A stretch of 39,017 nucleotides of DNA from a phage. The position numbers were made by a program, and so were the translations under genes. Where the stretch lies: the sequence record PZ168289.1, one strand, 5' to 3'. The number at the start of each line of letters is the position of its first letter. Position 1 is the first letter of the stretch. A model generated the notes under the pieces. The model did not search any database, was not told the DNA's origin, and was given only the letters and a program-made list of their open reading frames with translations. Of this stretch, positions 6,930 through 38,782 are shown piece after piece.

Positions 6930-7388
6930 TTAACCACGGTCGGAAGTGACCAGTTCATTGGTAGACAGCCAGCGTTGCAAGTCGAAACTTGGACACGCCT
7001 TAGGTGCTACGTCATGGTGTGCTTTGATTTCTGCCTGAGGATACATGGACTTCAGGTCAGCCAGCTTGTTGCGCAGGGAGTTCATCTGGGCTGTAGTGAA
7101 GTTAGCTTCAAACTGACCCTTAGCGTTGATTCCACCTACAAGGCAGACGCCTACGGACTTGGAGTTCCAGTCCTTAACGTGTGACCCTACGACATTGACT
7201 GGGCGACCCTCTTCCACAGTGCCATCACGTTTGATGATAAAGTGGTAGCCTACGTCCAGCCAGCCTTGCTGCTTGTGCCACATACGGATGGTCTCTACCC
7301 CGATGTCCATCTCTGGCTTGGTAGCCGAACAGTGAACGAAGATAGCGTCAGTCCGGGACCGTGGGTTGAACTGTACCTTACTTACCAT
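6930..7388 (-). CDS. lysozyme / N-acetylmuramoyl-L-alanine amidase (T7 gp3.5-like)
   Basis: Near-identical blocks to T7 lysozyme (DAIFVHCSATKP, WLDVGYHFIIKRDGTVE, GVCLVGGI, APKACPSFDL, ELVTSDRG). Confidence 0.96.
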   Translation of the reverse strand: MVSKVQFNPRSRTDAIFVHCSATKPEMDIGVETIRMWHKQQGWLDVGYHFIIKRDGTVEEGRPVNVVGSHVKDWNSKSVGVCLVGGINAKGQFEANFTTAQMNSLRNKLADLKSMYPQAEIKAHHDVAPKACPSFDLQRWLSTNELVTSDRG

Positions 7389-7848
7389 TGTACACCACCA
7401 ATTCTACGACCACTAGATTCAGGTGCTGGGTGAAGCGCTGTGCGTCCGTGGTGTGCATCTGGAGACGCTTATGGTTGAAGACGTGTGAGTTGCTAATCTT
7501 CACGTAAACTTCTTCAGGCTTTCCGTGGACGATGAACGTCTGGCCTACACCAATCTTGTCGATGGTCAGGACTTCACGCTTCACAGTCACAGGCGGTACG
7601 CTCGAAGCTGGCAGGACTTGCGGTTTATCCTCTACGATTTCCTCAAGATGTTCTTTTAAAACCCACGCCCCCCACATACCGTCAGGCTGAGTGTCATAAC
7701 CTGCTGCTCCGTGTTTGTAGGCTCCACGCTCAGTGGATTCCACCAGAACATGTCCAGACGATGGTACAGGGTCTTTCGCACATTTCGTAACGATAGTACC
7801 TTTAGGCCACCCGTAGCCACTAACCTTAAGTCTATATTTCTGAGTCAT
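7378..7848 (-). CDS. orphan hypothetical protein inserted between endonuclease I and lysozyme
   Basis: 156-aa ORF; AGGAG 7 nt upstream of ATG 7848; start overlaps gp3 stop (TGATG); 3' end overlaps lysozyme start by 11 nt; no recognisable motif; T7 has no gene here. Confidence 0.6.
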   Translation of the reverse strand: MTQKYRLKVSGYGWPKGTIVTKCAKDPVPSSGHVLVESTERGAYKHGAAGYDTQPDGMWGAWVLKEHLEEIVEDKPQVLPASSVPPVTVKREVLTIDKIGVGQTFIVHGKPEEVYVKISNSHVFNHKRLQMHTTDAQRFTQHLNLVVVELVVYNGK

Positions 7849-8300
7849 CACTTAACTCCTTTCTTCTTGGGGATGAGGATACCTGAAGGCAGACGTACAG
7901 TCGCCTCTCGCAGCCACTCAACCGGGATGAACTTATCGGCATACTTATAGCCGTTCTTTTCGCACCATGCGCCATACGTGGTCGGAGACCCCTTGTATAA
8001 CTTGGAGCGGGAACTTGAGAACACGAACCGAATGTCTAACTCAGGGTGCTGTTCTTTAATCAATAGGTGCTTCTTACGGTCTTCCACTGCGAAGATTCCT
8101 TTGGTCTCCACAATTATTCCATTGGGCAATACAAAGTCTGGACAATAACTGTGTAGAGACTGAGGGATTGTGTATGCTATTTTATACATCTCGTATTCAG
8201 CCTTTACGCCATTCTTCTCCAGCCACTCTTGGTTCTTTGCCTCAAGACCAGACCTATATATTCCTACCGAATGTCCCCTGCTTATACTACGTGTAGCCAT
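7848..8300 (-). CDS. endonuclease I (T7 gp3-like Holliday junction resolvase)
   Basis: Strong similarity to T7 gp3 (YRSGLE, PDF.LPNGI.VETKG, DRKKHLLI.EQHPELDIR.VFSSS..KLYKGSPT.YG). Confidence 0.96.
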   Translation of the reverse strand: MATRSISRGHSVGIYRSGLEAKNQEWLEKNGVKAEYEMYKIAYTIPQSLHSYCPDFVLPNGIIVETKGIFAVEDRKKHLLIKEQHPELDIRFVFSSSRSKLYKGSPTTYGAWCEKNGYKYADKFIPVEWLREATVRLPSGILIPKKKGVK

Positions 8301-8731
8301 GTTTCTCTCCTTAGTATCTTACCTATTGTTGGCTGAGACACTCCGTAGATTGTGGCGAGCTGTCGCTGGGTAAGGCCAGAAGACCTAATTTCCTTGACTT
8401 TAGTATCAGTAAGTTTAGACATACCGCACTTCTCTCCCGGAACATGAGGAGGGTTTACACCGCGCCCCTTGTTACGCATGTCCTGAAGGTTATCCCTTTG
8501 GGTTCCTACAGTTAGATGCTCAGGGTTACAACATAGCGGAGTGTCACAAGTGTGTAGTAGAACACCATTTGGTTCTTCACCTGTAATCAGCTCGTAGGCT
8601 ACACGATGGGCAAGCATGGTTTTCCCATTATGCCTAATCTGACTGTAGCCATTGTTGTTAACGCAGCCAGTGAAAAGCCAGCAGCTACCCGAAACCCTGA
8701 GTCGCTGCTTGAGGCTTTCTATTGTAGCCAT
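8282..8731 (-). CDS. HNH homing endonuclease (copy 1 of 3)
   Basis: Cys-rich HNH motif (CW.FTGC, LAHRVAYEL, HTCD.PLCCNPEHL) plus C-terminal HTH-like tail; start overlaps SSB stop, end overlaps gp3 start. Confidence 0.85.
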   Translation of the reverse strand: MATIESLKQRLRVSGSCWLFTGCVNNNGYSQIRHNGKTMLAHRVAYELITGEEPNGVLLHTCDTPLCCNPEHLTVGTQRDNLQDMRNKGRGVNPPHVPGEKCGMSKLTDTKVKEIRSSGLTQRQLATIYGVSQPTIGKILRRETWLHVV

Positions 8732-9429
8732 TAGAAGTCGTAATCGCCACCAGAGCCAGAGTCGCCACCGCCTTCGGAACCATCATCACCGAAGTCATCG
8801 TCACCGAAGTCACCATCGGTTGACGCTTTGTAGCCAGTACCGAGGTCTTCATCATCACCCCAGCCACCATCGCCACCAGCACCATCACCTTTCCACTCCT
8901 TCAGTTCTACCAGAAGGCAGGACTCAAGCTGGAGCTTAACGCTTGCACCAGTCGCAGCGTTCCACTTGAACGGCAGGACTTTGAACTTGACCTTCAGCTT
9001 AGACCCAGCGCCAATATTCGGGACGTCACGGATGAGTTTAGCATCGGTGTCGTAGAACCGTAATACGATAGGCTCGGACTTGCCGTCTTTCAGGTAAGAC
9101 GCAAAGCATTTAAACTTCAGGGTAACAGTACCGTCACCATTCTCAATCCACGGCATGTCGCCTTCTCGTGGTTCAATAGGCTTCTTGCCACGCTGAACCT
9201 GAGGCGGGTTCTTCTCGTGGTCTGCGAGTGCTTTCGCATACGCATCGTCATGAATCTTCTGTAAGACATCAATCATCTTACGGACCTTCGGGTTGCTCAG
9301 GTCGAATGTCAGGTTAACCTTATGCTCACCACGCTCGTTAAACTTGGTGTCTGCTTTGTTCAGCCATGCGTAAGGCTCAACGATACCAGCTACCGGAGTG
9401 GTGAAAGTCTTCAGTTGCTCTTTAGCCAT
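8731..9429 (-). CDS. single-stranded DNA-binding protein (T7 gp2.5-like)
   Basis: 232 aa as in T7; conserved blocks (EPYAW, NPPQVQRGKKP, GDMPW..NGDGT.T.KFKC, WNAATGASVKLQLES.LLVEL) and acidic C-terminus ending DF. Confidence 0.96.
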   Translation of the reverse strand: MAKEQLKTFTTPVAGIVEPYAWLNKADTKFNERGEHKVNLTFDLSNPKVRKMIDVLQKIHDDAYAKALADHEKNPPQVQRGKKPIEPREGDMPWIENGDGTVTLKFKCFASYLKDGKSEPIVLRFYDTDAKLIRDVPNIGAGSKLKVKFKVLPFKWNAATGASVKLQLESCLLVELKEWKGDGAGGDGGWGDDEDLGTGYKASTDGDFGDDDFGDDGSEGGGDSGSGGDYDF

Positions 9430-9469
9430 CGGTGTAAATCTCCTAATTTAAAAGTTACGAACTGGACGT

Positions 9470-9492
9470 CTGTCCTACAGTGATAGTTTAGG
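9470..9492 (-). promoter_or_regulatory. phage RNAP promoter (SSB upstream)
   Basis: CCTACAGTGATAGTTTAG, one mismatch at -3; contains the gp2 stop codon. Confidence 0.6.
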
Positions 9493-9646
9493 CCTCAGGA
9501 CGAATCCGTCCGACCACAAACCCAGCGTCCTCATACTCTTGGGACTTCAAGGTAGCCTCTTCAAGAGACTTTGCGTACACCGGAACCTCGAAGGACTTAA
9601 CGCGACCCTCAAGCTCCACGATGTACTTCTTCTCTACGTCAGTCAT
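9488..9646 (-). CDS. gp2-like inhibitor of host RNA polymerase
   Basis: 52-aa ORF (below track threshold), hand-translated; FEVPVYA...AGF.VGRIRP resembles T7 gp2; TAA stop lies inside promoter 9470-9492. Confidence 0.55.
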
Positions 9647-9724
9647 AGACCACGCTCCTTCCATAAGTTGTAGAGCTGAAGGTAATCGACGTTACCTGTC
9701 TCCTCAAATTTTCTCTCAGCCCAC

Positions 9725-10060
9725 TCACTCGGCAGCATAGCACTTACCTTTATGTAGGTCGAACAGCTCCTGATAGAAGGCTGCTTTGTTCAGGTCCTTC
9801 TCCATAGTAGCCAGCTCTGACTTCTTACCAGCTCGGAGTCGATACTTCAGGACGTTACCCATGCAGAAACCACGGAACTCGCTGACAGTCATTGACCGCG
9901 CGATAATCTCAATGGATTCCACGCCGTCAAAGACCTGATAGTGTGACGGCTTGCGAACCCCGTCATCTTTACTACACGCGGCGATGATGCTGGTAACAGC
10001 ACCGCAGTCGCACGAACCGAAGCTAAGGACCGAGCGGCACCACTCCTTGTGCTTAGCCAT
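9725..10060 (-). CDS. gp1.7-like protein, C-terminal domain only (T7 gp1.7 is a nucleotide kinase)
   Basis: KPSHYQVFDGVESIEIIARSMTVSEFRGFCMGNVLKYRLRAGKKSELA matches the C-terminal half of T7 gp1.7; 111 aa vs 196 in T7; AAGGAGGTGG RBS. Confidence 0.8.
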   Translation of the reverse strand: MAKHKEWCRSVLSFGSCDCGAVTSIIAACSKDDGVRKPSHYQVFDGVESIEIIARSMTVSEFRGFCMGNVLKYRLRAGKKSELATMEKDLNKAAFYQELFDLHKGKCYAAE

Positions 10061-10437: not shown

Positions 10438-10555
10438 TGACGTTATAATGAATCTCTTAAGGCTACTGCCTCGGCTATGGTCTTGGCATATAGGACCACG
10501 CGCTCTCCGTTGACCACCTTCTTGATACAGTAAAGCTCTCGACCTTTCATCTACT

Positions 10556-17459: not shown

Positions 17460-18093
17460 TTAAATAATATTGATTGAGCTATCGTCGGCCCCATAGTGTA
17501 AGAGGATATAGTCTTTGACTAACATGTCTTTGACCTTAAGTCTATAGCTGTGTGTCGATTAACTGTAGGCCTTTGACTGTAGGCGTTGGTGTCTTATGGT
17601 TGTGACTTATGGTTGTGACTTATGGTTGTGACTTATGGTTGTGACTTATGGTTGTGACTTATGGTTATACAGATAGAGACTCAGAGGCAGACCAATAGTC
17701 CCTACCTATCGTCTCCACCACCACCGATAGTCATGACCTATCGTTGACTTGAGGTATTTACAGCCGGTCCAACCTTATGATAGACTGGGGTAGGGCCTTT
17801 GGTCTGGACTTAAAGAGGGCCTATGGGGAGACTTGAGGTTCTTGAACTGTGAGATGTGGTCTCAAACTTTTGGTCCAAAACTCATCGTCCCTACTGTAGG
17901 ACACAGCCACTGTAGGTCAAGGACCGTAGGTCAGGCGACACTAGGATAGACCAATAAGTAGGATGACCCTAAGTGAGCTTCTATTAAGGTGTTACCTAAA
18001 GTCCTTGACTACAGTAGCTAAGGTCAGTAGAGTGAGTCTTTATCCACGTACTGACCTTAGGTCTTCCGCTCATGAATCGTTACCATGATTGCG
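17460..18093. repeat. ORF-free genome-terminus region with dispersed short repeats (likely holds the collapsed terminal repeat / concatemer junction)
   Basis: No ORF of any size with an RBS; recurrent short motifs (TAGGTCA/TGACCTA variants, TGTAGG); lies between the last late gene and the early promoters, where the T7 ends and terminal repeat map. Confidence 0.5.
17593..17670. repeat. tandem array of a 13-bp unit CTTATGGTTGTGA (5 perfect copies plus degenerate flanking copies)
   Basis: Perfect copies at 17593-17605, 17606-17618, 17619-17631, 17632-17644, 17645-17657; partial copy 17658-17670; in the ORF-free genome-end region. Confidence 0.9.
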
Positions 18094-18549: not shown

Positions 18550-20316
18550 CTAGTGGAACGTAACGTATGACCCTAGTCCTAGCTCGTCGTCCGTATCGTG
18601 AGTTACCCTGACCCCATTGTCCCAGAACTCGGTGTGGATGGACTCGAAGCCTTTCCGTGGGTTCTCCATCTGTTCCTCCAGCCACTCCTCAGTGACTTCG
18701 CGTTCGCCTTTGTTGGCATCCTTAGCCATAGACTCAACGAAGAACTGTACACCGATAGCCAGAGCATCAAGTCGGTCATCGTGTGCCAAGGCTCCACGCT
18801 CACGAGAGATACGGGTCATCTGGTAGAAGAGAGAGTAGATAGGGTTACGAACGCCATCCTTATCAGAGGCTGTCTGGTAGTCTTGGACGATAGCAGCAGC
18901 GTTAACGATAAGTCGGTGAGACCCCATGATAGGCTCCAGAACGTCACAGATGCGGAGTTCTTTCTGACCCTTACTCTTCACTTCAGTTACAGCCGCAGGA
19001 TGGATACGGGCCGCTACAGGCTTGAATAGCTCAAGGTACATACCATCACCGAAGTTACCCTCAATGACGTATTCGTTGACCTTCCACTTACGACCAATCT
19101 TAGCCAAGGCTTCCAACGTAGAGTCTTCATAACCGCCACGCATACCACCCACTTCCATAGCGAAGATGTAGCCGTTGAGCTGATACAGTACCGCATAACC
19201 AGTTTCATCCTTACCACGACCACTAGGGTCAATGACCAGAATCTTCTGGGTGTACGAACTGAAGGCAGAACCTACAGTCTGATACGTGTGGTACGAGTCA
19301 CCCATGAGTCCAACGTTAGGAACGTCCTCACGCTTGTTCTGAGGGTTCGGCAACCATTGGTAGACCATTGGACTGGACGCTGGGTCCAAGTCGGCTACGA
19401 TAAGGTCACGGAGCTTCAGAGGGTACTTCTCTGCATCACTCAGGTTAGGGTTAAGCATGAACTGTAGCGCGAAGCCAGCTTTACCGTAAGATAGCTCACG
19501 TTCCTTAAGGTCAGTATCATCGAAGCGTACTTCATCAGTCGGACGCCAGTAGAAGGACTCAGGGTCCTCTTCCAGCTCTGCCTGAAGCATAGGAGCCAGA
19601 CGGTCGCCGTAAGACTGCCAGTCCTTCCTGTCGCGTGGATACCGAGCTGGCCAGATAGTAGTGGTATACCCACGACCTTCCAACTCACGATACAGGGTCA
19701 TCTCGTTCTGAGGAGTGCCCAGATAGATGATTGCACCTCCCGGCTTCAGGATAGCGTCGAACTCTTTCACAAGCTCTGACAGTCGGTCTCGCGCAGCCTG
19801 AGTCGCAGAGTTGTTAGGAACCTCCACGTCATCGGCAATCAGGATGTCAGCACGACTACCAGTCAACTGACCAGTGATGCCAACGGACTTAACCGAAGGT
19901 GAGTGGTCTGGCTTGGCTGGCCCAACGTCGAAGCTGATAACTGCATCTCGCTGTCCCTGCTTAGGTTTGAGTTCCTGAAGCTGAGGCATGAGGTCGATGA
20001 TTCGCTTGATGAATATGGAGTTAGCATCGGCTCGTTCCTTTGAGGCCGACACAATCATGAACTTCAAGTCTGGGTTGTTCCATAGTTTCCAGACCACGAA
20101 ACCACAGGTCAGAAACGACTTGCCAATACCACGGAACGCCTGAAGGATGAAGCGGCGATTATCCCCAGCAGCAAGCTTCTTACACATATCTATCTGGCAG
20201 CGGGTTGGAACCGGAAGGCTAAGAGCTTTCCAGAGAACGAAGATGAAGAACACGAAGTCGTCCCTCATCCTTTGGGTCATTTCTGCCTGTCTTTCCACAG
20301 GTGTTTTCTTAGACAT
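18550..20316 (-). CDS. terminase large subunit (T7 gp19-like)
   Basis: Collinear with T7 gp19 ([81 protein letters not shown]); GGAGGG RBS. Confidence 0.97.
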
Positions 20317-26400: not shown

Positions 26401-27361
26401 CGTATGTCAGAGGGTCTACACCAGCACCAATCACACCAGCAGCTAACTGAGCACCAGTCCCAGCCTTGGCCTTCTCTTGGTCCAACTTCTGGTTCTCAAG
26501 CGCCAAGTTGATAAGCTCGGTCAGGTTCTGAGGTGAGCCACCAGTAATGACTCCGTAATACTGGGGCAGAACCCCAGCGTTACGAATCTGGTCCAGCTCC
26601 TCACGAGCCCACTTATGGTTGTTCCAGCGGGTCGGGTTGAACACATCGCCAATGACATCAAGTGAGTCCTCAGTCTGACCAGCGCGGATAGCCACGCCGA
26701 CCATAGAGTTCTTCACTTCGGCTTCTGTAGCCGCACCAAAACCGAACCACGTAGAGCGACCCTCTCGTTCCTGCATGGTCTCGCCAGTAGACTTATAGAA
26801 CATCTCACCGAACGATTCGTTGGGAGCTTCAGGTGCTTGACCCTCAATGTTAAGACCAGCAGCGGTCGGAAGGTTCTCACCCAGAGCTACTTTAGGTTTA
26901 GCCTTGAGTCCTTCCGTGAGTGCGTCAAATACGTTAGCGCTTACTGGTGGAGTCTTTGGGCTAATGCCATTGAGTGCTCGTGCGACTCCCTTCTGATAGA
27001 CTTCAGGGTCGTACCGGGAGCCTGTCTCATGGAAGCTGATAGCTTGAGCCAGAGAAGACAGGGTGTCAGGGTCCGATAGGTCGAGGCTCTGGGTAGCTGG
27101 AATACCAGTTGCAGCCACCACTGAGTCAATATAAGACTTAGTATCGTTCTCGTTAGGAGGTGCCCATCGGTTGATAATCTTCTCGATGGAGTCATAACCT
27201 TGGCGACCGTAGGACAGCAGGTTTTTACCTAAAGCTCGGACGCCAGACTCTGGGCTATCAAATATTACAAACTCCCCATCATCACCAATAGCTCCTTCCC
27301 ATTGGTCCTTAGACTTACGTATATTTCCAGGGTTCGAATTTCTTATGCCACGTGTTGCCAT
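23474..27361 (-). CDS. internal virion protein D with N-terminal lytic transglycosylase domain (T7 gp16-like)
   Basis: 1295 aa; long collinear similarity to T7 gp16 (PTRWN.H.W, GAGVDPL.YVP, MRLEARETARN, VRSPTGMQSG, GTYVPHVY, AYGISH..QF, NNSFLEARNLFDSD); AAGGAG RBS. Confidence 0.96.
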   Translation of the reverse strand: MATRGIRNSNPGNIRKSKDQWEGAIGDDGEFVIFDSPESGVRALGKNLLSYGRQGYDSIEKIINRWAPPNENDTKSYIDSVVAATGIPATQSLDLSDPDTLSSLAQAISFHETGSRYDPEVYQKGVARALNGISPKTPPVSANVFDALTEGLKAKPKVALGENLPTAAGLNIEGQAPEAPNESFGEMFYKSTGETMQEREGRSTWFGFGAATEAEVKNSMVGVAIRAGQTEDSLDVIGDVFNPTRWNNHKWAREELDQIRNAGVLPQYYGVITGGSPQNLTELINLALENQKLDQEKAKAGTGAQLAAGVIGAGVDPLTYVPIAGQVGKGGKLVNKMFTVAAQSGALAGVSEMARTSVAGGDAHVAEAILGGALFGGGMTAIADGLGRALGRNTNEFAGPATRLEARETARNVDGQDLSRLPIQEGEQTFSHQGVKFADVPNEPGSVRLEDGSILIGENPLNPKTRQVFDEVIEPERAAAGVNLGGLTEIGLKLLRSENPEIRGVAADLVRSPTGMQSGSSGKIGTTASDVFERLRAVDHRLYNDIDDAVTEALKDPYFQTAFWRDSGAFRQDIYQRVSMAIEDGSGNLKAELTPGELKVYDLLKNQFDAKREMMENPAMFGRPDAQSIFPGSRFKGTYVPHVYSKQMKELYIKELGSPEALQEAIKKSWLTSYASRPEVKKRVDEALLEADPTLTPEGLAAAVDKYANDKAYGISHTEQFERSSVMEENINGLVGLENNSFLEARNLFDSDMSIVLPNGQTFSVNNLREWDMDKIVPAYNRRVNGDIAIMAGAGKTTKEMKDLVETMMNKAGDDGKLKGEVSTLRDTLKILTGRARRDGADDAAFATVMRTMTDLSFFAKNAYMGVQNLTEIGGMLARGNVRAMLHGVPIFRDLAFRNKKVGASEIKDLHNVIFGKELDDSIRPSKQDVIDRLRSYSDLGRGTATALGTAKYYTGELAVRSPFTKVLNGTTNYLLDAGRQGFLSDIVEHSLTGSKRKFDDRWLKTAGISDEQWKGIKSLIRESVTRGPDGKYTIKDKKAFSQDPRAMDLWRMGDTIADETLLRPHKLSNMDAKAYGPLAKTVLQFKNFVIKSINGRTMRTFYNATKNNRAMDAALSTVMSMGLAGIYYMAQAHVKAYAMQDGRDREYLKQALDPTMIGYAALSRSSHLGGPLGVANILGGIAGYEDTKMLRSSILPRSPTEQPERAIAYGAATSDPVMNVVGNFLEQVPAFGYAANVGASAYNLAGYLKADTRVNERDYMTGMYNTFRELVPNDPITQKLLLGTFEEQGIHIKN

Positions 27362-27792
27362 GTCTTTCTCCTTAAGATATTTCTAATAGAAACCGTACTC
27401 ACTCCATAGGAGCTAGCTAGGAATGAAACCTTTAGGTCGCTAGACCGTATGTTCTTCACATCAGTCTCTGTCAATTTGGACACTCCTATTGAGCTTCCAG
27501 ACGCTTGACGACCTCTTTCCACCTTGTCTCTAATGTTGTCAGCCTGAGTTCCGGCCTCAAGATGGTCAGGGTTTATGCAGGACGGATTGTCGCACTTATG
27601 GCGTACAACATACCCTTCAGGTATAGGACCACTGGCAAGCTCATAAGCTAGTCGATGTGCTCTATACTTAACTCTGTTAATCATTATCTGACCGTAACCG
27701 TCAGAATCTACGGTCCCAGTGAATCGGATACAGCCAGAGCTTTCAGCTACTGACAATTCTGCCAGTCTCTCACTGGCTGTCCCGTTCTTCAT
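27343..27792 (-). CDS. HNH homing endonuclease (copy 2 of 3)
   Basis: HNH motif (C..FTG, AHRLAYEL, HKCDNPSCINPDHL) plus HTH-like tail; start set to ATG 27792 with AAGGAG RBS (track 27810); 3' end overlaps the first codons of gp16. Confidence 0.85.
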   Translation of the reverse strand: MKNGTASERLAELSVAESSGCIRFTGTVDSDGYGQIMINRVKYRAHRLAYELASGPIPEGYVVRHKCDNPSCINPDHLEAGTQADNIRDKVERGRQASGSSIGVSKLTETDVKNIRSSDLKVSFLASSYGVSTVSIRNILRRKTWQHVA

Positions 27793-27796
27793 TATG

Positions 27797-30079
27797 TTAC
27801 TCCTTACCAATTAGTACGTTTGCGATACCCTCCAGTGAGACGTCATTATACATCCCACCGCGCTTCTCGATGTCGGCCTCTCGGTCAGCTCGACGTTTAT
27901 CACCAGCAGCTTTAGTCCCGACGATACGCGCTCGCTTGTTAGCGTCACGTTCTGCCTGAGCGTATGCGGCATCCTGTGCCTTCTGCTGTTGTTCGCGGTA
28001 GAGTTTACCTACAAGTTCTTTATCGTAGCGAATACGAATAGTCCCTGTAGCGTCTTGGAGGAAGATAGAGCCGTTCTGTTCAACAACGGACAACTGAGAG
28101 TTCACTACCCAAGGGTTGGCCTTAATGAGCTGCTTACGGGCGGTGTCGATAATGTCTCGACCTACCTGCCACGACTCAGGGTTATCCCCGACCATGAGCT
28201 GGTGCTTGGACACCATGCCGATGGACTTACCGTCAGAGCCTTCAGACTGGAACGTTACGGTATTTTCATTCAGCCATCGTTGAGTCTGCTGAGTTGCAGC
28301 GTCAGCGTTACCTGTACGATAGTACCATGAGTCCCAGACCTTACGAGCACTTGAGTCCAGAGACGTAGGAAGACGCGAAAGGTCCTTATTCCGAGAGTCG
28401 TTCTTCAACTCCTGCCACGCCTTGTCTGACTCCATGCGCATCTCACGGCTTTGACTTGCAGCTTGCTTATCAGCTTCAATCATCGTCTGAGGGTCCAGAC
28501 CCATCTTGTCCATCTGGTCGAACGTAGAGAACAACTGAGCTTGGTCAGGATACAGAGCAGCGAAACTTGAAGGGTCCTGAGTGTAGGCACGACGCAGTGA
28601 CTCGAAGCGTTTCATCTTGTCTGGGTCGTACTGTCCACGGATGACCGCAGCTTGCCACTCACCAGCAGCGTCCTGAGTCAGCGTCTGGAAGGCATTACGG
28701 AACGGACCGTTGTTAGTGTCAGCTCTTAACAATGCCACCTTCTGAGCGTCTTTAGCGGCCTCAGGGATGTCCATCTGGTCAATCTGCTGTAGCTTGGCAG
28801 ACGCATAGTTGTTCATGTCAGAACGCTTGAACTCGCCTGTAGCATCTGAGACCGGAAGGTCCTCATAGTTGGTGGACACGTTGTCACCAGCCAGCCGCCG
28901 CTGATATACTTGGTCTATGACCAGTTGCTTGTTCTGGGTCTGGATTAACTTAGTGTTCTCCTTAGCCTGTTCAGCGGACTTACGCTTGACCGCTTCCAGT
29001 AAGCTGGCTTCGGCATTAATAAGCATCTGACGCTGAGGCGTTAGTTCTTCACCGGGTTGAAGCAGGTTGTTCTGCTCCTTGAGTTTCTGAATCTGGGCAA
29101 GACCAATGGTTGGGTCGTCCTGAAGAATCGCAGACTGAACGCCTAACGCCAAGTCTTCCTGATACTTAGCAACCAGTTTATACTCAGTACCTTGGGCCTC
29201 AACCATAGCAGCATTGAAGACGTCAGGTCCTACAATCTCTTCGACGGTAGCGTCAACACCGTTAAGTGTGATACGCTCGCCACGGACTTGCTGTAGGAAG
29301 TTTGAGCCTCCTGACTTCTGGATTGCGTCACGGACCGTCTGGGTGATGACCTCTCGTGCTCTCTGGTCCGAAGGTATAGCAGCAGTCGTCAGTCCATCAC
29401 GAAGGTAGGCCATGAAGGTCTTTCCAGACTCAGGCGAACGCATCAGGTCCCCATCGTTAAGGAACGAGTTCATCTCAATACGAGTGTTCAACATTGCTGT
29501 CTCTTCAGACTGCTTGCTGAAATACTTATTGAATGACCCGTATATAGCGATGTTTCTGTCCGTGATGTTATCGTTGAATCCACGCTGGAAGAACTCGTCG
29601 GTAGGGTTAATACCCGCCTCTTCAGCATAGGACTTAGCGGCATCCTGAAGTCGCTGGTGGCGATACTCTTCCATGTCCTGACGTGTTCGGAACTCACCGT
29701 TCTGAATCTTAACGTTAATCTCGTCATCCACCGCAAAGGCAGCGTTACGACCAGTCTTGACTCGAAGTGCTTCCATAGCGTAAGGGTCATCCTGATACAG
29801 CAATGTGCCGTTCTGGATAGCCTCACGTCTCTGCTGAGGTGTCAACTTACGGATAATCTCGTTAGACCGCTCGTCAGCTCTGGTCTTCTCCTCGTCCTTG
29901 AACTGCTTGTACAATCCAGTCCCAGACTCAACGAAGTTGGTTAACGCACGAGCCAGACCGGAGTCACCAGTCGGAGCCTGAACGTTTGCTGCTTGATAGT
30001 TGACGGCGATAGTTTTACCCGGCGCTCTGCCACGACCCATAGTCCGATTAGCAAGAGCTGATTCAATATTACTAGCCAT
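27797..30079 (-). CDS. internal virion protein C (T7 gp15-like)
   Basis: Collinear with T7 gp15 (DERSNEIIRKLTPQQRREA.QNGTLLYQDDPYAMEALRVKTGRNAA, EEYRH.RLQ, IRYDKEL). Confidence 0.93.
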   Translation of the reverse strand: MASNIESALANRTMGRGRAPGKTIAVNYQAANVQAPTGDSGLARALTNFVESGTGLYKQFKDEEKTRADERSNEIIRKLTPQQRREAIQNGTLLYQDDPYAMEALRVKTGRNAAFAVDDEINVKIQNGEFRTRQDMEEYRHQRLQDAAKSYAEEAGINPTDEFFQRGFNDNITDRNIAIYGSFNKYFSKQSEETAMLNTRIEMNSFLNDGDLMRSPESGKTFMAYLRDGLTTAAIPSDQRAREVITQTVRDAIQKSGGSNFLQQVRGERITLNGVDATVEEIVGPDVFNAAMVEAQGTEYKLVAKYQEDLALGVQSAILQDDPTIGLAQIQKLKEQNNLLQPGEELTPQRQMLINAEASLLEAVKRKSAEQAKENTKLIQTQNKQLVIDQVYQRRLAGDNVSTNYEDLPVSDATGEFKRSDMNNYASAKLQQIDQMDIPEAAKDAQKVALLRADTNNGPFRNAFQTLTQDAAGEWQAAVIRGQYDPDKMKRFESLRRAYTQDPSSFAALYPDQAQLFSTFDQMDKMGLDPQTMIEADKQAASQSREMRMESDKAWQELKNDSRNKDLSRLPTSLDSSARKVWDSWYYRTGNADAATQQTQRWLNENTVTFQSEGSDGKSIGMVSKHQLMVGDNPESWQVGRDIIDTARKQLIKANPWVVNSQLSVVEQNGSIFLQDATGTIRIRYDKELVGKLYREQQQKAQDAAYAQAERDANKRARIVGTKAAGDKRRADREADIEKRGGMYNDVSLEGIANVLIGKE

Positions 30080-36815: not shown

Positions 36816-38379
36816 CTTGAGCCATGTCCTCACCAGCTCCCTGACCTACAGCAGCGCCCATGTTAGCACCAGCAGCAGACGCACCGTTGACCACAGCTCC
36901 TTGAGTGGATTGTTCAGCCATACGTTGCAGCTTCTCGTCCTGAGTCAGCAGTAGACCAGCGGTGTCAATGCCTAAGGCATTCAGCAGTCGCAGCTTCAGG
37001 GTCGGCAAGTTAATGTCTGGGTCCTGTTGCAGAGGCTGTAGCCCGGTCATCATGTTGACTGCCTGAGTCAACTTCTCTAAGTCTTGACCACGACCTAACG
37101 CTTCCAGACCAGTGGAGACCGTAGGCTCTACCGCTTCTTTCGGAAGGTCAGGAATCATGCCAGCAGACTGAAGTTGGTTCATCAGCACACGGACGATAGG
37201 TAACTGAAGCTCTTGTGACTGTACTGAGTACACGCCACCTAAGGTCGCCTCCAGTTCGCCAGCAACATAACGAATCTCTTCAGCAGTGACTCGCTCGGCA
37301 TTACGCTGAACAGCACTATTAAGAAGGAAGGCCCAGCCTAAACGTTGCTCGATAGCATCAGCCACCGACTTGGCAATCGTAAAGTCCTGACCTTTCGTCA
37401 GTTGAAGGAAGTTGATGTCCTCAACGCGACCAGCCACGAACTCACCTGTAGCCGCCTTGTTCAGACGACGAGGTTGCGTGATACCGTTCGGGTTAACGAG
37501 GCCCACCACCTTGGAGGCTACCTTAGCCATTTTGGTGATAGCTTCTGTAATCGTCTCCAGCGAGTTCAGGTCTCCCAGATACTCCTCGCAGTAAGAACGA
37601 CCATAGTCTTCACCATCCAGTCGAACCATTCGCACCGGGATGTACGGACAGGCAGTCAGTGGGTAAGAACCCTCGGTCCCTGCTACCTCAATTCCTTCCA
37701 CTTCCTCGTATCGCAGATACTCGTCGTCCTGACGGTAGATGTGCGTATATACTTCCAGCTCGGTGTCAGGCTCATAGTCGTCTGCGTTGAGTTGTGACTT
37801 CACGTCTTCCGGTAGAGCACTAAACGCTACCTTGTCGAGAGTCACAATCTGCAAGATATTACCGAAAGCATCACGTTGAACAACGTAGGACACTAAGCGG
37901 TACATTCGCATAGGACTGTAAGTACCCTGTTCAGGCTCTGGAATGTATAGCAGACAGTTACCGGAGACGATAAGCTGCTTCAGAGCTTCGAACAATGGCA
38001 CGCGGAAACTGTTAGTCTCCATGTAGGCCATCAACACACGCTCGACCATAGCAAGCCCTTCGTCAACACGAGCAGCAGCCTCTGAGTCCTGACTCAAGGT
38101 CTTGGCCTCATATTCGGAGACTGTCAGTCGCATCCACGGTGACTGAGGGAATAACGCCAACATCAGCTTTGCAGCCAAGTTGTTCAAACAGCGAGCACCT
38201 ACAGCTTGCCACGGCGTCACGTATTCCGTAGAGGAGTTGTCTGACTCCTTGGGAAATAGCGAGGGGATGGTCACGGCAGCGCAGTTCTGTGCGCGGGTCT
38301 CGTAAGGCTGTCGTCCGTTCTTCAATCTATCATAAACTGACTTCGCGCCTTCAGCAGCAAATCCTTCACGTTCAGCCAT
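36811..38379 (-). CDS. portal (head-to-tail connector) protein (T7 gp8-like)
   Basis: Collinear with T7 gp8 (GAKSVY.RLKN.R.PYETRAQNCA, IPSLFPK.SDN.ST.Y.TPWQAVGAR.LNNLA.KLMLALFP, RLDGE.YGRSY.EEYLGDL, RVTAEEIRYVA.ELE.TLGGVYS). Confidence 0.97.
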   Translation of the reverse strand: MAEREGFAAEGAKSVYDRLKNGRQPYETRAQNCAAVTIPSLFPKESDNSSTEYVTPWQAVGARCLNNLAAKLMLALFPQSPWMRLTVSEYEAKTLSQDSEAAARVDEGLAMVERVLMAYMETNSFRVPLFEALKQLIVSGNCLLYIPEPEQGTYSPMRMYRLVSYVVQRDAFGNILQIVTLDKVAFSALPEDVKSQLNADDYEPDTELEVYTHIYRQDDEYLRYEEVEGIEVAGTEGSYPLTACPYIPVRMVRLDGEDYGRSYCEEYLGDLNSLETITEAITKMAKVASKVVGLVNPNGITQPRRLNKAATGEFVAGRVEDINFLQLTKGQDFTIAKSVADAIEQRLGWAFLLNSAVQRNAERVTAEEIRYVAGELEATLGGVYSVQSQELQLPIVRVLMNQLQSAGMIPDLPKEAVEPTVSTGLEALGRGQDLEKLTQAVNMMTGLQPLQQDPDINLPTLKLRLLNALGIDTAGLLLTQDEKLQRMAEQSTQGAVVNGASAAGANMGAAVGQGAGEDMAQA

Positions 38380-38782
38380 CTACGTGCCTCCATGTTTTAC
38401 CTGTTAATACGTCAGACAGCGTTCTCCTAGCTACTCCCGGATATGCAGAGGTAAGCTCTGTCGCTGTTAGCCCTGACTTTCGTATGGACTTAACATCTTC
38501 GGCTGTTAGCTTTGAGTTGTAATGGCTGTCACTATGTGGAGCGTTCTTTCTACCTTTGGAAACACAGTCTACCATGTTATCGCTATAAGTACCAACGCTC
38601 AGGTGTTCGGGATTGACGCATAGTCTATTGTCGCAGGCATGCATCACCACTAGACCTTCTGGTATGGGACCTTTGTGTTTTAGGTAGGACACTACATGCG
38701 CTCCACGCAGCTTGCCTGCATACCACTTCAGGCCATATCCAACATTATTTACGCAGCCCTTATGCAGTATGCAGTCTGTCAT
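38372..38782 (-). CDS. HNH homing endonuclease (copy 3 of 3)
   Basis: HNH motif (GCVNN.GYG, HACDNRLCVNPEHL) plus HTH-like tail; start overlaps gp7.3 stop, 3' end overlaps portal start by 8 nt. Confidence 0.85.
   Translation of the reverse strand: MTDCILHKGCVNNVGYGLKWYAGKLRGAHVVSYLKHKGPIPEGLVVMHACDNRLCVNPEHLSVGTYSDNMVDCVSKGRKNAPHSDSHYNSKLTAEDVKSIRKSGLTATELTSAYPGVARRTLSDVLTGKTWRHVDG

What the first reader, a model, noticed from the sequence alone, without database searches (positions are those of the whole stretch)
8282..8731. HNH homing endonuclease copy 1, wedged between SSB and endonuclease I
One of three paralogous HNH genes sharing the same architecture (Cys-rich HNH core plus C-terminal HTH-like tail). 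Each overlaps both neighbouring essential genes, the typical footprint of free-standing homing endonucleases. Three copies in a 39-kb genome suggest active intron-less homing and may mark recombination hot spots.
Basis: partly seen in the sequence, partly recalled or inferred. Interest (0 to 1): 0.5.

Follow-up and report, generated by a model that had tools for sequence, protein, structure and literature searches.

The report
Selfish HNH nuclease gene in T7-like phage
This is a small, intact, mobile "homing" nuclease gene wedged between two DNA-metabolism genes of a K1F/T7-like coliphage, the counterpart of phage T7 gene 2.8; it is an ordinary, already recognised kind of selfish element, though its footprints here are unusually clean.

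Summary
Window 8282..8731 (- strand) is a 149-aa ORF with an HNH_3 nuclease core and a C-terminal helix-turn-helix. It shares 1 nt with the SSB (gp2.5) stop and 19 nt with the endonuclease I (gp3) start. Two family members (47-50% identity) lie at the gp15/gp16 and gp7.3/gp8 junctions.

The window is a Kayfunavirus genome written in reverse. T7 gene 2.8 occupies the same junction, with the same architecture and 40% identity.

Among 221 related phage records that carry both flanking genes, only 4 hold this gene. About 9 hold one of two other HNH lineages at the same site, and ZG49 (two records of one phage) holds an in-frame scar. In a 60-record sample, 54 had SSB abutting endo I directly.

The gene is under purifying selection (dN/dS 0.09-0.21) and keeps its catalytic residues. 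It is strictly linked to a divergent ~250-bp 5' segment of gene 3, and copy 2 shows the same downstream-only tract. Its last codons supply the Shine-Dalgarno and ATG of gene 3.

The homing-endonuclease reading is supported. No cleavage or homing was tested. Novelty is low: near-identical genes are already annotated as "HNH homing endonuclease".

The parts
8282..8731 (-). HNH1: free-standing HNH homing-endonuclease gene, 149 aa, the positional counterpart of T7 gene 2.8
   Evidence: ORF. Pfam HNH_3 plus HTH_3. PHROG HNH/endonuclease families, E 5e-30. 40% identity over the full length to T7 gp2.8. dN/dS 0.09-0.21 among orthologues.
8486..8614 (-). HNH_3 (His-Me finger) nuclease core, residues 40-82. 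It includes the inferred general base H60 (8552..8554), the Cys/His zinc ligands C62, C67 and H72, and the inferred metal ligand N81 (8489..8491).
8312..8407 (-). C-terminal three-helix HTH DNA-binding module, residues 109-140
8298..8312 (-). Shine-Dalgarno AAGGAG (8307..8312) and ATG (8298..8300) of endonuclease I, both encoded inside the last HNH1 codons (L-R-R-E-T-W)
   Evidence: Read directly from the sequence. The same arrangement occurs at the 3' end of copy 2, and analogous arrangements occur at copy 3, T7 2.8 and T7 7.7.
8051..8300 (-). HNH-linked divergent 5' segment of gene 3 (endonuclease I). This is the inferred co-conversion or immunity tract and the likely location of the target in HNH-less phages.
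   Evidence: 34-82% identity to six HNH-less relatives here, against 92-100% from 8050 onward. Matches of 84% or more to 8051..8281 occur only in genomes with an HNH at this junction.
7848..8300 (-). Endonuclease I (gp3) gene. Its N-terminus is MATRSIS here, versus MAQWSAK in HNH-less relatives.
   Evidence: Pfam Phage_endo_I, E 2e-74. Translations compared.
8731..9429 (-). SSB (gp2.5) gene. Its TAA stop shares one base with the HNH1 ATG (TAATG).
   Evidence: Pfam SBB_T7, E 1e-72. Sequence. In HNH-less relatives the same TAATG is the endo I start.
9473..9499 (-). Nearest upstream copy of the repeated phage-promoter-like motif (reverse complement of TCCTAcAGTGATAGTTTAGG). It probably drives the SSB-HNH1-endo I transcript.
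   Evidence: Repeat families D2-D5 and D7, about 11 copies across the genome. No copy lies inside or next to HNH1. The promoter function is inferred.
27343..27792 (-). HNH2: family member between gp15 and gp16. The longest ORF extends to 27810 (TTG start); the ATG at 27790..27792, preceded by TAAGGAG, is the preferred start.
   Evidence: Orthologue of CR44b gene '7.7C, predicted homing endonuclease'. The junction is empty in most relatives.
27241..27361 (-). HNH2-linked divergent 5' segment of gene 16
   Evidence: 68-78% identity to the empty allele of ST1749, against 95-100% in the gp15 flank right up to the insertion and 92-100% beyond 27240.
38372..38782 (-). HNH3: family member between gp7.3 and the portal gene, the positional counterpart of T7 gene 7.7
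   Evidence: T7 7.7 sits at the same junction. The junction is empty in K1F and most relatives.

Best explanation
HNH1 is a free-standing, intron-less HNH (His-Me finger, Pfam HNH_3 / I-HmuI-like) homing-endonuclease gene at the gene 2.5/gene 3 junction of a Kayfunavirus.

Shown:
- It is an intact, selectively maintained protein with a nuclease core and a separate HTH DNA-binding tail.
- It is present in only a few percent of otherwise near-identical phages.
- The same junction is used by at least three different HNH lineages and carries a deletion scar in one phage.
- The gene is always accompanied by a divergent ~250-bp 5' end of gene 3.

Inferred mechanism:
- The gene is co-transcribed with SSB from the promoter-like motif upstream of gene 2.5, during the DNA-replication phase.
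- It is translated by coupling to the SSB stop (TAATG), so it has taken over what is the gene 3 start site in empty genomes.
- In a mixed infection the enzyme binds, through its HTH and N-terminal beta-sheet, a site in the conserved 5' part of gene 3 of an HNH-less relative. It then nicks or cuts there; a nick is more likely for a monomeric I-HmuI-type enzyme, and replication would convert it to a break.
- Repair templated on the HNH+ genome copies in the HNH gene together with the adjacent, cleavage-resistant gene 3 segment.
- The last codons of the HNH gene (LRRETW) carry the AAGGAG and ATG that gene 3 now depends on. Insertion is therefore non-polar, and simple deletion of the element would damage gene 3 expression.
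For: Domain content and fold. Conserved catalytic and zinc residues. Purifying selection, dN/dS 0.09-0.21.

Sporadic distribution: 4 records carry the gene while 221 carry the flanks. In a 60-record spread sample, 54 were empty, 4 occupied, 1 scarred and 1 only partly matched. Among 9 close IMG/VR relatives, 5 were empty, 3 occupied and 1 scarred.

Same junction, other lineages: PE3-1 type in 24 Studiervirinae records; KM02 type; T7 gene 2.8. In-frame scar in ZG49.

HNH-linked divergent tract 8051..8300, with variable distal ends between HC13 and the window. Close matches to the tract occur only in occupied genomes. The same downstream-only tract follows copy 2.

No intron or other RNA family in the window. 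SD and ATG of gene 3 embedded in the HNH 3' end. T7 2.8, 3.8 and 7.7 are treated as homing endonucleases in bioRxiv 10.1101/2025.09.07.674715.
Against: - No cleavage, target site or biased inheritance has been shown for this protein, and I found none for T7 gp2.8 in the searched literature.
- The linked divergent flank would also arise if the gene simply hitch-hiked on ordinary recombination with a more distant phage.
- The window copy carries a private G30S change at a Gly that is nearly invariant in the family. It also differs from its nearest IMG/VR relative by 4 nonsynonymous and 0 synonymous changes. This particular allele could therefore be weakened.
- Placing the target inside gene 3 is inference from tract asymmetry only.
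Confidence: 0.75

Rival explanations
1. The gene is a domesticated accessory gene kept because it benefits the phage, not because it homes. It could protect against break-sensing host defence systems, or act as a weapon that cuts competing phages (interference competition).
For: The bioRxiv preprint 10.1101/2025.09.07.674715 reports that phage HNH homing endonucleases, including a catalytically dead T7 gp3.8, attenuate GAPS4 defence. It also reports that T7 lacking 2.8, 3.8 and 7.7 is outcompeted by wild type only when GAPS4 is active. Purifying selection on HNH1 fits a useful function.
Against: Roughly 94% of close relatives do without any gene at this junction. That distribution fits an element cycling through gain and loss better than a beneficial fixture. 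Scarred (ZG49) and replaced (PE3-1 type, KM02 type) states occur at the same site. This reading is also not exclusive of homing.
Confidence: 0.15
2. The gene is a passive passenger. It is or was a nuclease gene, but it now spreads only through ordinary homologous recombination between co-infecting T7-like phages, and this allele may be catalytically weakened.
For: There is a private G30S change at a near-invariant glycine, and 4 nonsynonymous versus 0 synonymous differences from the nearest relative. T7-like genomes are generally mosaic; other variable segments near the locus (7378..7851, about 10000..10050) have no nuclease gene.
Against: Among the more diverged orthologues dN/dS is 0.09-0.21, and all catalytic and zinc residues are intact. 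Three unrelated-looking HNH lineages converge on the same junction. The divergent tract lies on one side only for two different copies. Site-specific cutting predicts this; random recombination does not.
Confidence: 0.08
3. It is a DNA-binding regulator derived from a nuclease, as Smad MH1 and NFI domains derive from the same fold. It would use the HTH and His-Me finger only to bind DNA.
Against: The inferred general-base His (H60), the metal-ligand Asn (N81) and D63 are nearly invariant across 44 family members. A non-catalytic derivative would not be expected to keep them. The distribution is that of a mobile element.
Confidence: 0.02

Closest known systems
Phage T7 gene 2.8 product (NP_041971, annotated endonuclease; putative HNH homing endonuclease)
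   Same: Same junction, between gene 2.5 (SSB) and gene 3 (endonuclease I). Similar size (139 versus 149 aa). Same HNH_3 core plus C-terminal HTH. Overlaps gene 3 by 20 nt versus 19 nt here. 40% identity over the full length, E 3e-30.
   Different: The sequence is no closer to gp2.8 than to T7 gp7.7 or to the other two copies in the window; all pairs fall at 41-53%. It is therefore a separate lineage in the same site rather than a clear orthologue. The C-terminal tail differs (RRETWLHVV versus KGRRHGRLRR). T7 2.8 starts 1 nt after the SSB stop with GTG (TAAGTG), whereas HNH1 overlaps it (TAATG).
HNH homing endonuclease of Escherichia phage HC13 (URY99500); also UFJF_EcSW4, EcoIv1_Emlis and EcoIv10b_Midid
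   Same: True orthologues: 93.6-98.7% DNA identity, same junction, same overlaps. The gene is already annotated as 'HNH homing endonuclease' in HC13 and 'putative HNH endonuclease' in UFJF_EcSW4.
   Different: The window allele has the private G30S change. None of these four records appears among the copy 2 or copy 3 matches.
PE3-1-type and KM02-type HNH genes at the 2.5/3 junction of other Kayfunaviruses and Studiervirinae
   Same: Same insertion site, same size and architecture. Each supplies the SD and ATG of gene 3 from its own last codons. PE3-1-type genomes share the same divergent gene 3 5' allele, at 89-90% identity.
   Different: Only about 41% protein identity to HNH1 for the PE3-1 type (KM02 was not compared). 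The gene 3 N-termini differ: MARTIS (PE3-1) and MARSMS (KM02) versus MATRSIS.
I-HmuI (SPO1 intron-encoded HNH nickase, PDB 1U3E) and I-PpoI (His-Cys box)
   Different: HNH1 is not intron-encoded (no Rfam intron). Only 15-20% identity, and no detectable sequence match to any PDB chain in the nuclease core. Nicking versus double-strand cutting is unknown here.
Free-standing homing endonucleases of T4-like phages (Seg and Mob proteins) that mediate intron-less homing and marker exclusion (from general knowledge)
   Same: Intergenic position between conserved genes. Sporadic distribution. A linked co-conversion tract in the neighbouring gene.
   Different: Different hosts and, for the Seg proteins, a different nuclease family (GIY-YIG). 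Activity here is not demonstrated.

Membership tests
HNH / His-Me finger nucleases, Pfam HNH_3 (PF13392) subgroup | Sequence match to the family profile above the curated threshold | tested here: met
   HNH_3: 39.7 bits against a cut-off of 24.8, E 3.6e-10. Copies 2 and 3 score 60.1 and 51.9 bits.
HNH / His-Me finger nucleases, Pfam HNH_3 (PF13392) subgroup | Conserved general-base His, metal-ligand Asn/His and structural zinc ligands in a beta-beta-alpha fold | tested here: met
Free-standing homing endonuclease gene (intron-less homing) | Presence/absence polymorphism at one precise site among closely related genomes | tested here: met
   4 records carry the gene and 221 carry the flanks. Empty genomes have the SSB stop overlapping the endo I start.
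Free-standing homing endonuclease gene (intron-less homing) | Not embedded in an intron or intein | tested here: met
   It is a separate ORF between two complete genes. No Rfam family was found in the whole window.
Free-standing homing endonuclease gene (intron-less homing) | Flanking-marker co-conversion linked to the gene | tested here: met
   The divergent tract 8051..8300 is found only in occupied genomes, and its distal end varies. This is indirect, comparative evidence only.
Free-standing homing endonuclease gene (intron-less homing) | Site-specific cleavage of the gene-less allele and resistance of the gene-bearing allele | not testable with these tools
   This needs purified protein and DNA substrates.
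Free-standing homing endonuclease gene (intron-less homing) | Super-Mendelian inheritance in mixed infection | not testable with these tools
   This needs phage crosses.
T7 gene 2.8 orthologue | Same genomic position and architecture | tested here: met
   Both lie between 2.5 and 3 and overlap gene 3 by 19-20 nt.
T7 gene 2.8 orthologue | Closer in sequence to gp2.8 than to family members at other sites | tested here: not met
   Global identity is 46% to gp2.8, against 48% to T7 gp7.7, 48% to HNH2 and 47% to HNH3. It is a homologue, but orthology is not supported.
Intron-encoded HNH endonucleases (I-HmuI, I-TslI type) | Located within a self-splicing group I intron | tested here: not met
   No intron model matched. 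The flanking genes are separate and complete.
Terminase-associated HNH proteins (HK97 gp74 type) | Adjacent to the terminase genes and required for packaging | tested here: not met
   HNH1 lies in the DNA-metabolism module, about 10 kb from the ORF I took to be the large terminase (18550..20316; assigned from position next to the Rz-like gene, not tested). Most close relatives lack it.

The most novel reading that the evidence does not exclude
Members of this HNH family may act as 'start-site hijackers'. The element takes over the translational coupling signal of the downstream essential gene (the TAATG of SSB/gene 3). It then re-supplies that gene with a Shine-Dalgarno and ATG written into its own conserved C-terminal codons (R-R-x-T-W-x-H-V). 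This even rewrites the first six residues of endonuclease I (MAQWSAK becomes MATRSIS). Precise loss of the element would then cripple gene 3, an addiction-like stabiliser. The viable exits would be replacement by another HNH lineage or an in-frame fusion scar such as the one in ZG49.
Probability: 0.3. Interest if true: 0.45.

Novelty: already known. Interest (0 to 1): 0.25.

Why it matters
The gene is one more example of the selfish nuclease genes that pepper T7-like phages. Near-identical copies are already annotated as such, and T7 has a counterpart at the same spot. Its value is as a clean natural experiment. One junction shows the states expected of a homing cycle within one genus: empty, occupied by three different lineages, and scarred. 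It also has a sharply bounded linked tract in the neighbouring gene. This points to where the untested cleavage site should be, in the first ~250 bp of gene 3 of HNH-less phages. It also marks sequence that engineers of therapeutic K1F-like phages should expect to be exchanged or excluded in mixed infections.

Tried and rejected
- I considered that HNH1 arose by transposition of the gp15/16-site element, because gene 3 in HNH1+ genomes begins MATR like gene 16. I rejected this as unsupported. All pairwise identities among site types are 41-53%. The MATR start is also forced by reading the conserved TWxHV codons in the other frame.
- I considered an intron-borne gene. It is rejected: there is no Rfam hit and the flanking genes are separate.
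- I considered a terminase-associated HNH. It is rejected on position and on its dispensability in relatives.
- T7 gp3.8 shows no detectable similarity to HNH1, so it belongs to a different HNH family.
- A literature search for biochemical work on T7 gp2.8 or on Kayfunavirus HNH genes found genome descriptions and one preprint on defence attenuation, but no cleavage-site data.
- I did not use the representative-protein search, the metagenome or genome contig scans, or covariance models. The phage and IMG/VR collections already answered the presence/absence question.

Full report
**What is there**

The window is a complete-length (39,017 bp, 49.9% G+C) genome of a K1F-like member of the T7 group (Kayfunavirus, Studiervirinae). 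It is written so that every gene lies on the - strand. The best DNA matches across 7300..9900 are Kayfunavirus and Escherichia, Salmonella and Citrobacter phages at 90-96% identity.

The ORF at 8282..8731 (-) is real and encodes 149 aa. Pfam finds an HNH_3 nuclease core (residues 40-82, E 3.6e-10, above threshold) and a C-terminal helix-turn-helix (HTH_3, residues 118-144, just at threshold). PHROG endonuclease and HNH families match at E 5e-30 and weaker.

Upstream is the T7-type single-stranded DNA-binding protein gene (8731..9429). Downstream is endonuclease I (7848..8300). The HNH ATG shares one base with the SSB stop (TAATG). The HNH stop lies 19 nt inside the endonuclease I gene.

A tblastn of the protein against the window finds exactly two more family members. 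One is at 27343..27810 (50% identity), between the internal virion protein genes 15 and 16. The other is at 38372..38782 (47% identity), between gene 7.3 and the portal gene. The one detail to correct is that copy 2 most probably starts at the ATG at 27790..27792, behind a TAAGGAG, and so does not overlap gene 15.

**The protein**

In alignments of 9 and 44 family members, H42, C62, C67 and H72 are invariant. H60, D63, N81 and D84 are at least 90% conserved. This is the pattern of a zinc-stabilised His-Me finger with a general-base histidine and an asparagine metal ligand. The assignment of roles to individual residues is by analogy.

An AlphaFold model built on the 44-sequence alignment is confident (mean pLDDT 86.9). 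It shows an N-terminal beta-sheet, a beta-beta-alpha core, a poorly ordered linker (residues ~91-108) and a three-helix C-terminal domain. No PDB chain matches the nuclease core by sequence.

Orthologues that differ by 6-8% in DNA give dN/dS of 0.09-0.21, so the protein is under purifying selection. The window allele differs from its closest database relative by a single change, G30S, at a glycine that is nearly invariant in the family. This may or may not matter for activity.

**Distribution at the 2.5/3 junction**

The DNA of this gene occurs in only 4 of 50,697 phage records: EcoIv1_Emlis, EcoIv10b_Midid, HC13 and UFJF_EcSW4, at 93.6-98.7% identity. In HC13 it is already annotated 'HNH homing endonuclease'.

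The flanking SSB and endonuclease I genes, in contrast, are found together in 221 records. In an evenly spaced sample of 60 of these, the states of the junction were:

| State | Records |
|---|---|
| Empty (SSB-to-endo I span about 1,150 bp instead of 1,582 bp) | 54 |
| Occupied | 4 |
| About 40 bp extra (scar) | 1 |
| Only partly matched | 1 |

In the empty genome ST1749 the SSB stop overlaps the endonuclease I start in the same TAATG. Among nine close relatives in IMG/VR, five are empty, two carry this gene, one carries a different HNH and one carries a remnant.

The different HNH is the PE3-1 type, about 41% identical in protein. It is intact although under-annotated in PE3-1. It occupies this junction in 24 records spread over several genera of Studiervirinae. 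Phage KM02 carries a third lineage at the same place.

Phage ZG49 carries a scar. The first 18 codons of a PE3-1-type HNH are fused in frame to endonuclease I, and the record annotates this as a 168-aa endonuclease.

Phage T7 itself has gene 2.8 here. It is 139 aa with the same two-domain architecture, overlaps gene 3 by 20 nt, and is 40% identical to the window protein. The junction is thus a long-standing landing site for this family. Within one genus it shows the states expected of a homing cycle: empty, occupied, replaced and scarred.

**Footprints in the flanks**

A 50-nt sliding comparison with twelve relatives shows 90-100% identity through the body of the SSB gene in all of them. Identity dips to 72-90% over the last ~70 nt of SSB, in HNH-bearing and HNH-less genomes alike.

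In the first 250 nt of the endonuclease I gene (8300..8051), identity to the six HNH-less genomes falls to 34-82%. It returns abruptly to 92-100% at 8050. Genomes that carry an HNH at the junction share the window's version of this segment, including those with the PE3-1-type gene. The distal end of the shared tract differs between HC13 and the window.

Searching the segment against all phages finds matches of 84% or more only in genomes with an occupied junction. About 200 empty genomes share one conserved alternative allele at about 72% identity.

Copy 2 behaves the same way. The gene 15 flank is 95-100% identical to the empty allele right up to the insertion. The first ~120 nt of gene 16 drop to 68-78% and then recover.

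A one-sided, sharply bounded, element-linked tract is what co-conversion during break repair produces. It also fits a resistant variant of the target carried next to the element. On this basis I place the probable cleavage site in the 5' part of the downstream gene of HNH-less phages. This is inference.

**Expression and the overlap**

The only nearby copy of the genome's repeated promoter-like motif lies at 9473..9499, upstream of SSB. HNH1 is therefore presumably co-transcribed with the DNA-metabolism genes and translated by coupling to the SSB stop.

The last HNH codons, CTA AGG AGA GAA ACA TGG (L-R-R-E-T-W), contain an AAGGAG and, 6 nt later, the ATG of endonuclease I. As a result endonuclease I begins MATRSIS in HNH1-bearing genomes but MAQWSAK in empty ones.

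The same device appears at copy 2 (AAGGAGAAAGACATGG) and copy 3 (TGGAGG supplying the portal gene's GGAGG). It also appears in T7 2.8 and 7.7 and in the PE3-1 and KM02 types. The element thus takes over the downstream gene's original start signal and replaces it with one encoded in its own conserved C-terminus. Whether this makes loss of the element costly is a hypothesis.

**The three copies**

Copies 2 and 3 are also sporadic. Their junctions are fully matched in 17 of 217 and 8 of 209 related records, and are empty in K1F itself. Close DNA matches to copy 1 (4 records), copy 2 (11 records) and copy 3 (8 records) do not overlap. No sequenced phage in that collection shares two of the three with this window.

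The three proteins are 44-48% identical to each other. That is no closer than each is to T7 gp2.8 or gp7.7. They are family members acquired independently, not recent internal duplications.

**Comparison with what is known**

This is a free-standing HNH homing-endonuclease gene of the kind long noted in T7 (genes 2.8, 3.8, 5.3, 7.7) and repeatedly remarked on in genome papers on T7-like phages. A 2025 preprint treats T7 2.8, 3.8 and 7.7 as homing endonucleases and reports a second role in blunting a break-sensing host defence.

I found no biochemical description of a cleavage site for gp2.8 or any Kayfunavirus HNH. The window gene meets the sequence, fold, position and distribution criteria for the class. 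It is a homologue of T7 gp2.8 but not demonstrably its orthologue. The defining activities, site-specific cleavage and biased inheritance, could not be tested here.

**Verdict**

The finding is ordinary in kind and already annotated in close relatives. The modest added value is threefold: a clean multi-state picture of one homing site, the one-sided linked tracts that point to the target, and the start-site takeover.

Noticed in passing
window 7378..7851 (-): A 157-aa ORF of unknown function (PHROG 16385, E 1e-93, no Pfam hit) lies between endonuclease I and the amidase. It is highly variable: absent or replaced in L004, L006, L011 and HC13, and strongly divergent in L008, L009 and L012, while the flanks stay above 90% identical.
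   Followed up: partly
L008 2440..2520 (IMG/VR) and ZG49 KX669227.5 9920..10426: In-frame scar of an HNH gene. 18 codons of a PE3-1-type HNH (MKLKEKLEAYSEVSPGGC) are fused to endonuclease I, which the record annotates as a 168-aa endonuclease. The adjacent gene 3 segment is a mosaic of the HNH-linked and HNH-less alleles.
   Followed up: yes
L090 500..980 (Escherichia phage KM02, PQ179042.1): A third HNH lineage sits at the same SSB/endo I junction. The ORF appears intact, with a TTG start overlapping the SSB stop, but only its last 90 codons are annotated.
   Followed up: partly
window 8642..8644 (codon 30 of HNH1): Private Gly30-to-Ser change in the GYGQ motif. 15 of the 16 closest homologues have Gly here (one has Cys), and Gly is at least 90% conserved across the wider family. 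It could be a weakening mutation or a sequencing error.
   Followed up: partly
window 17576..17679: A tandem array of a 13-nt unit (GTGACTTATGGTT), six overlapping 39-nt copies, lies in a non-coding stretch. It may be near the physical genome end or terminal repeat.
   Followed up: no
window 988, 6669, 9473, 10345, 12103, 15168, 18437, 23459, 31167, 35803, 36796 (approximate starts): About eleven copies of a conserved ~20-nt motif, TCCTATAGTGATAGTT(T/A)AG on the + strand. Its reverse complement resembles T7-group phage RNA polymerase promoters. All are oriented with the genes.
   Followed up: no
window 10450..10550 and 10000..10050: Two further short segments are present or strongly divergent only in some relatives. 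The 10450..10550 segment is shared only with L010. Neither has an associated nuclease gene.
   Followed up: no
window 27241..27361 (gene 16 5' end): Gene 16 begins MATRGIR in both HNH-bearing and empty genomes. In HNH2-bearing genomes its first codons use different synonymous codons, which create the overlapping HNH2 tail W-Q-H-V-A-stop.
   Followed up: partly
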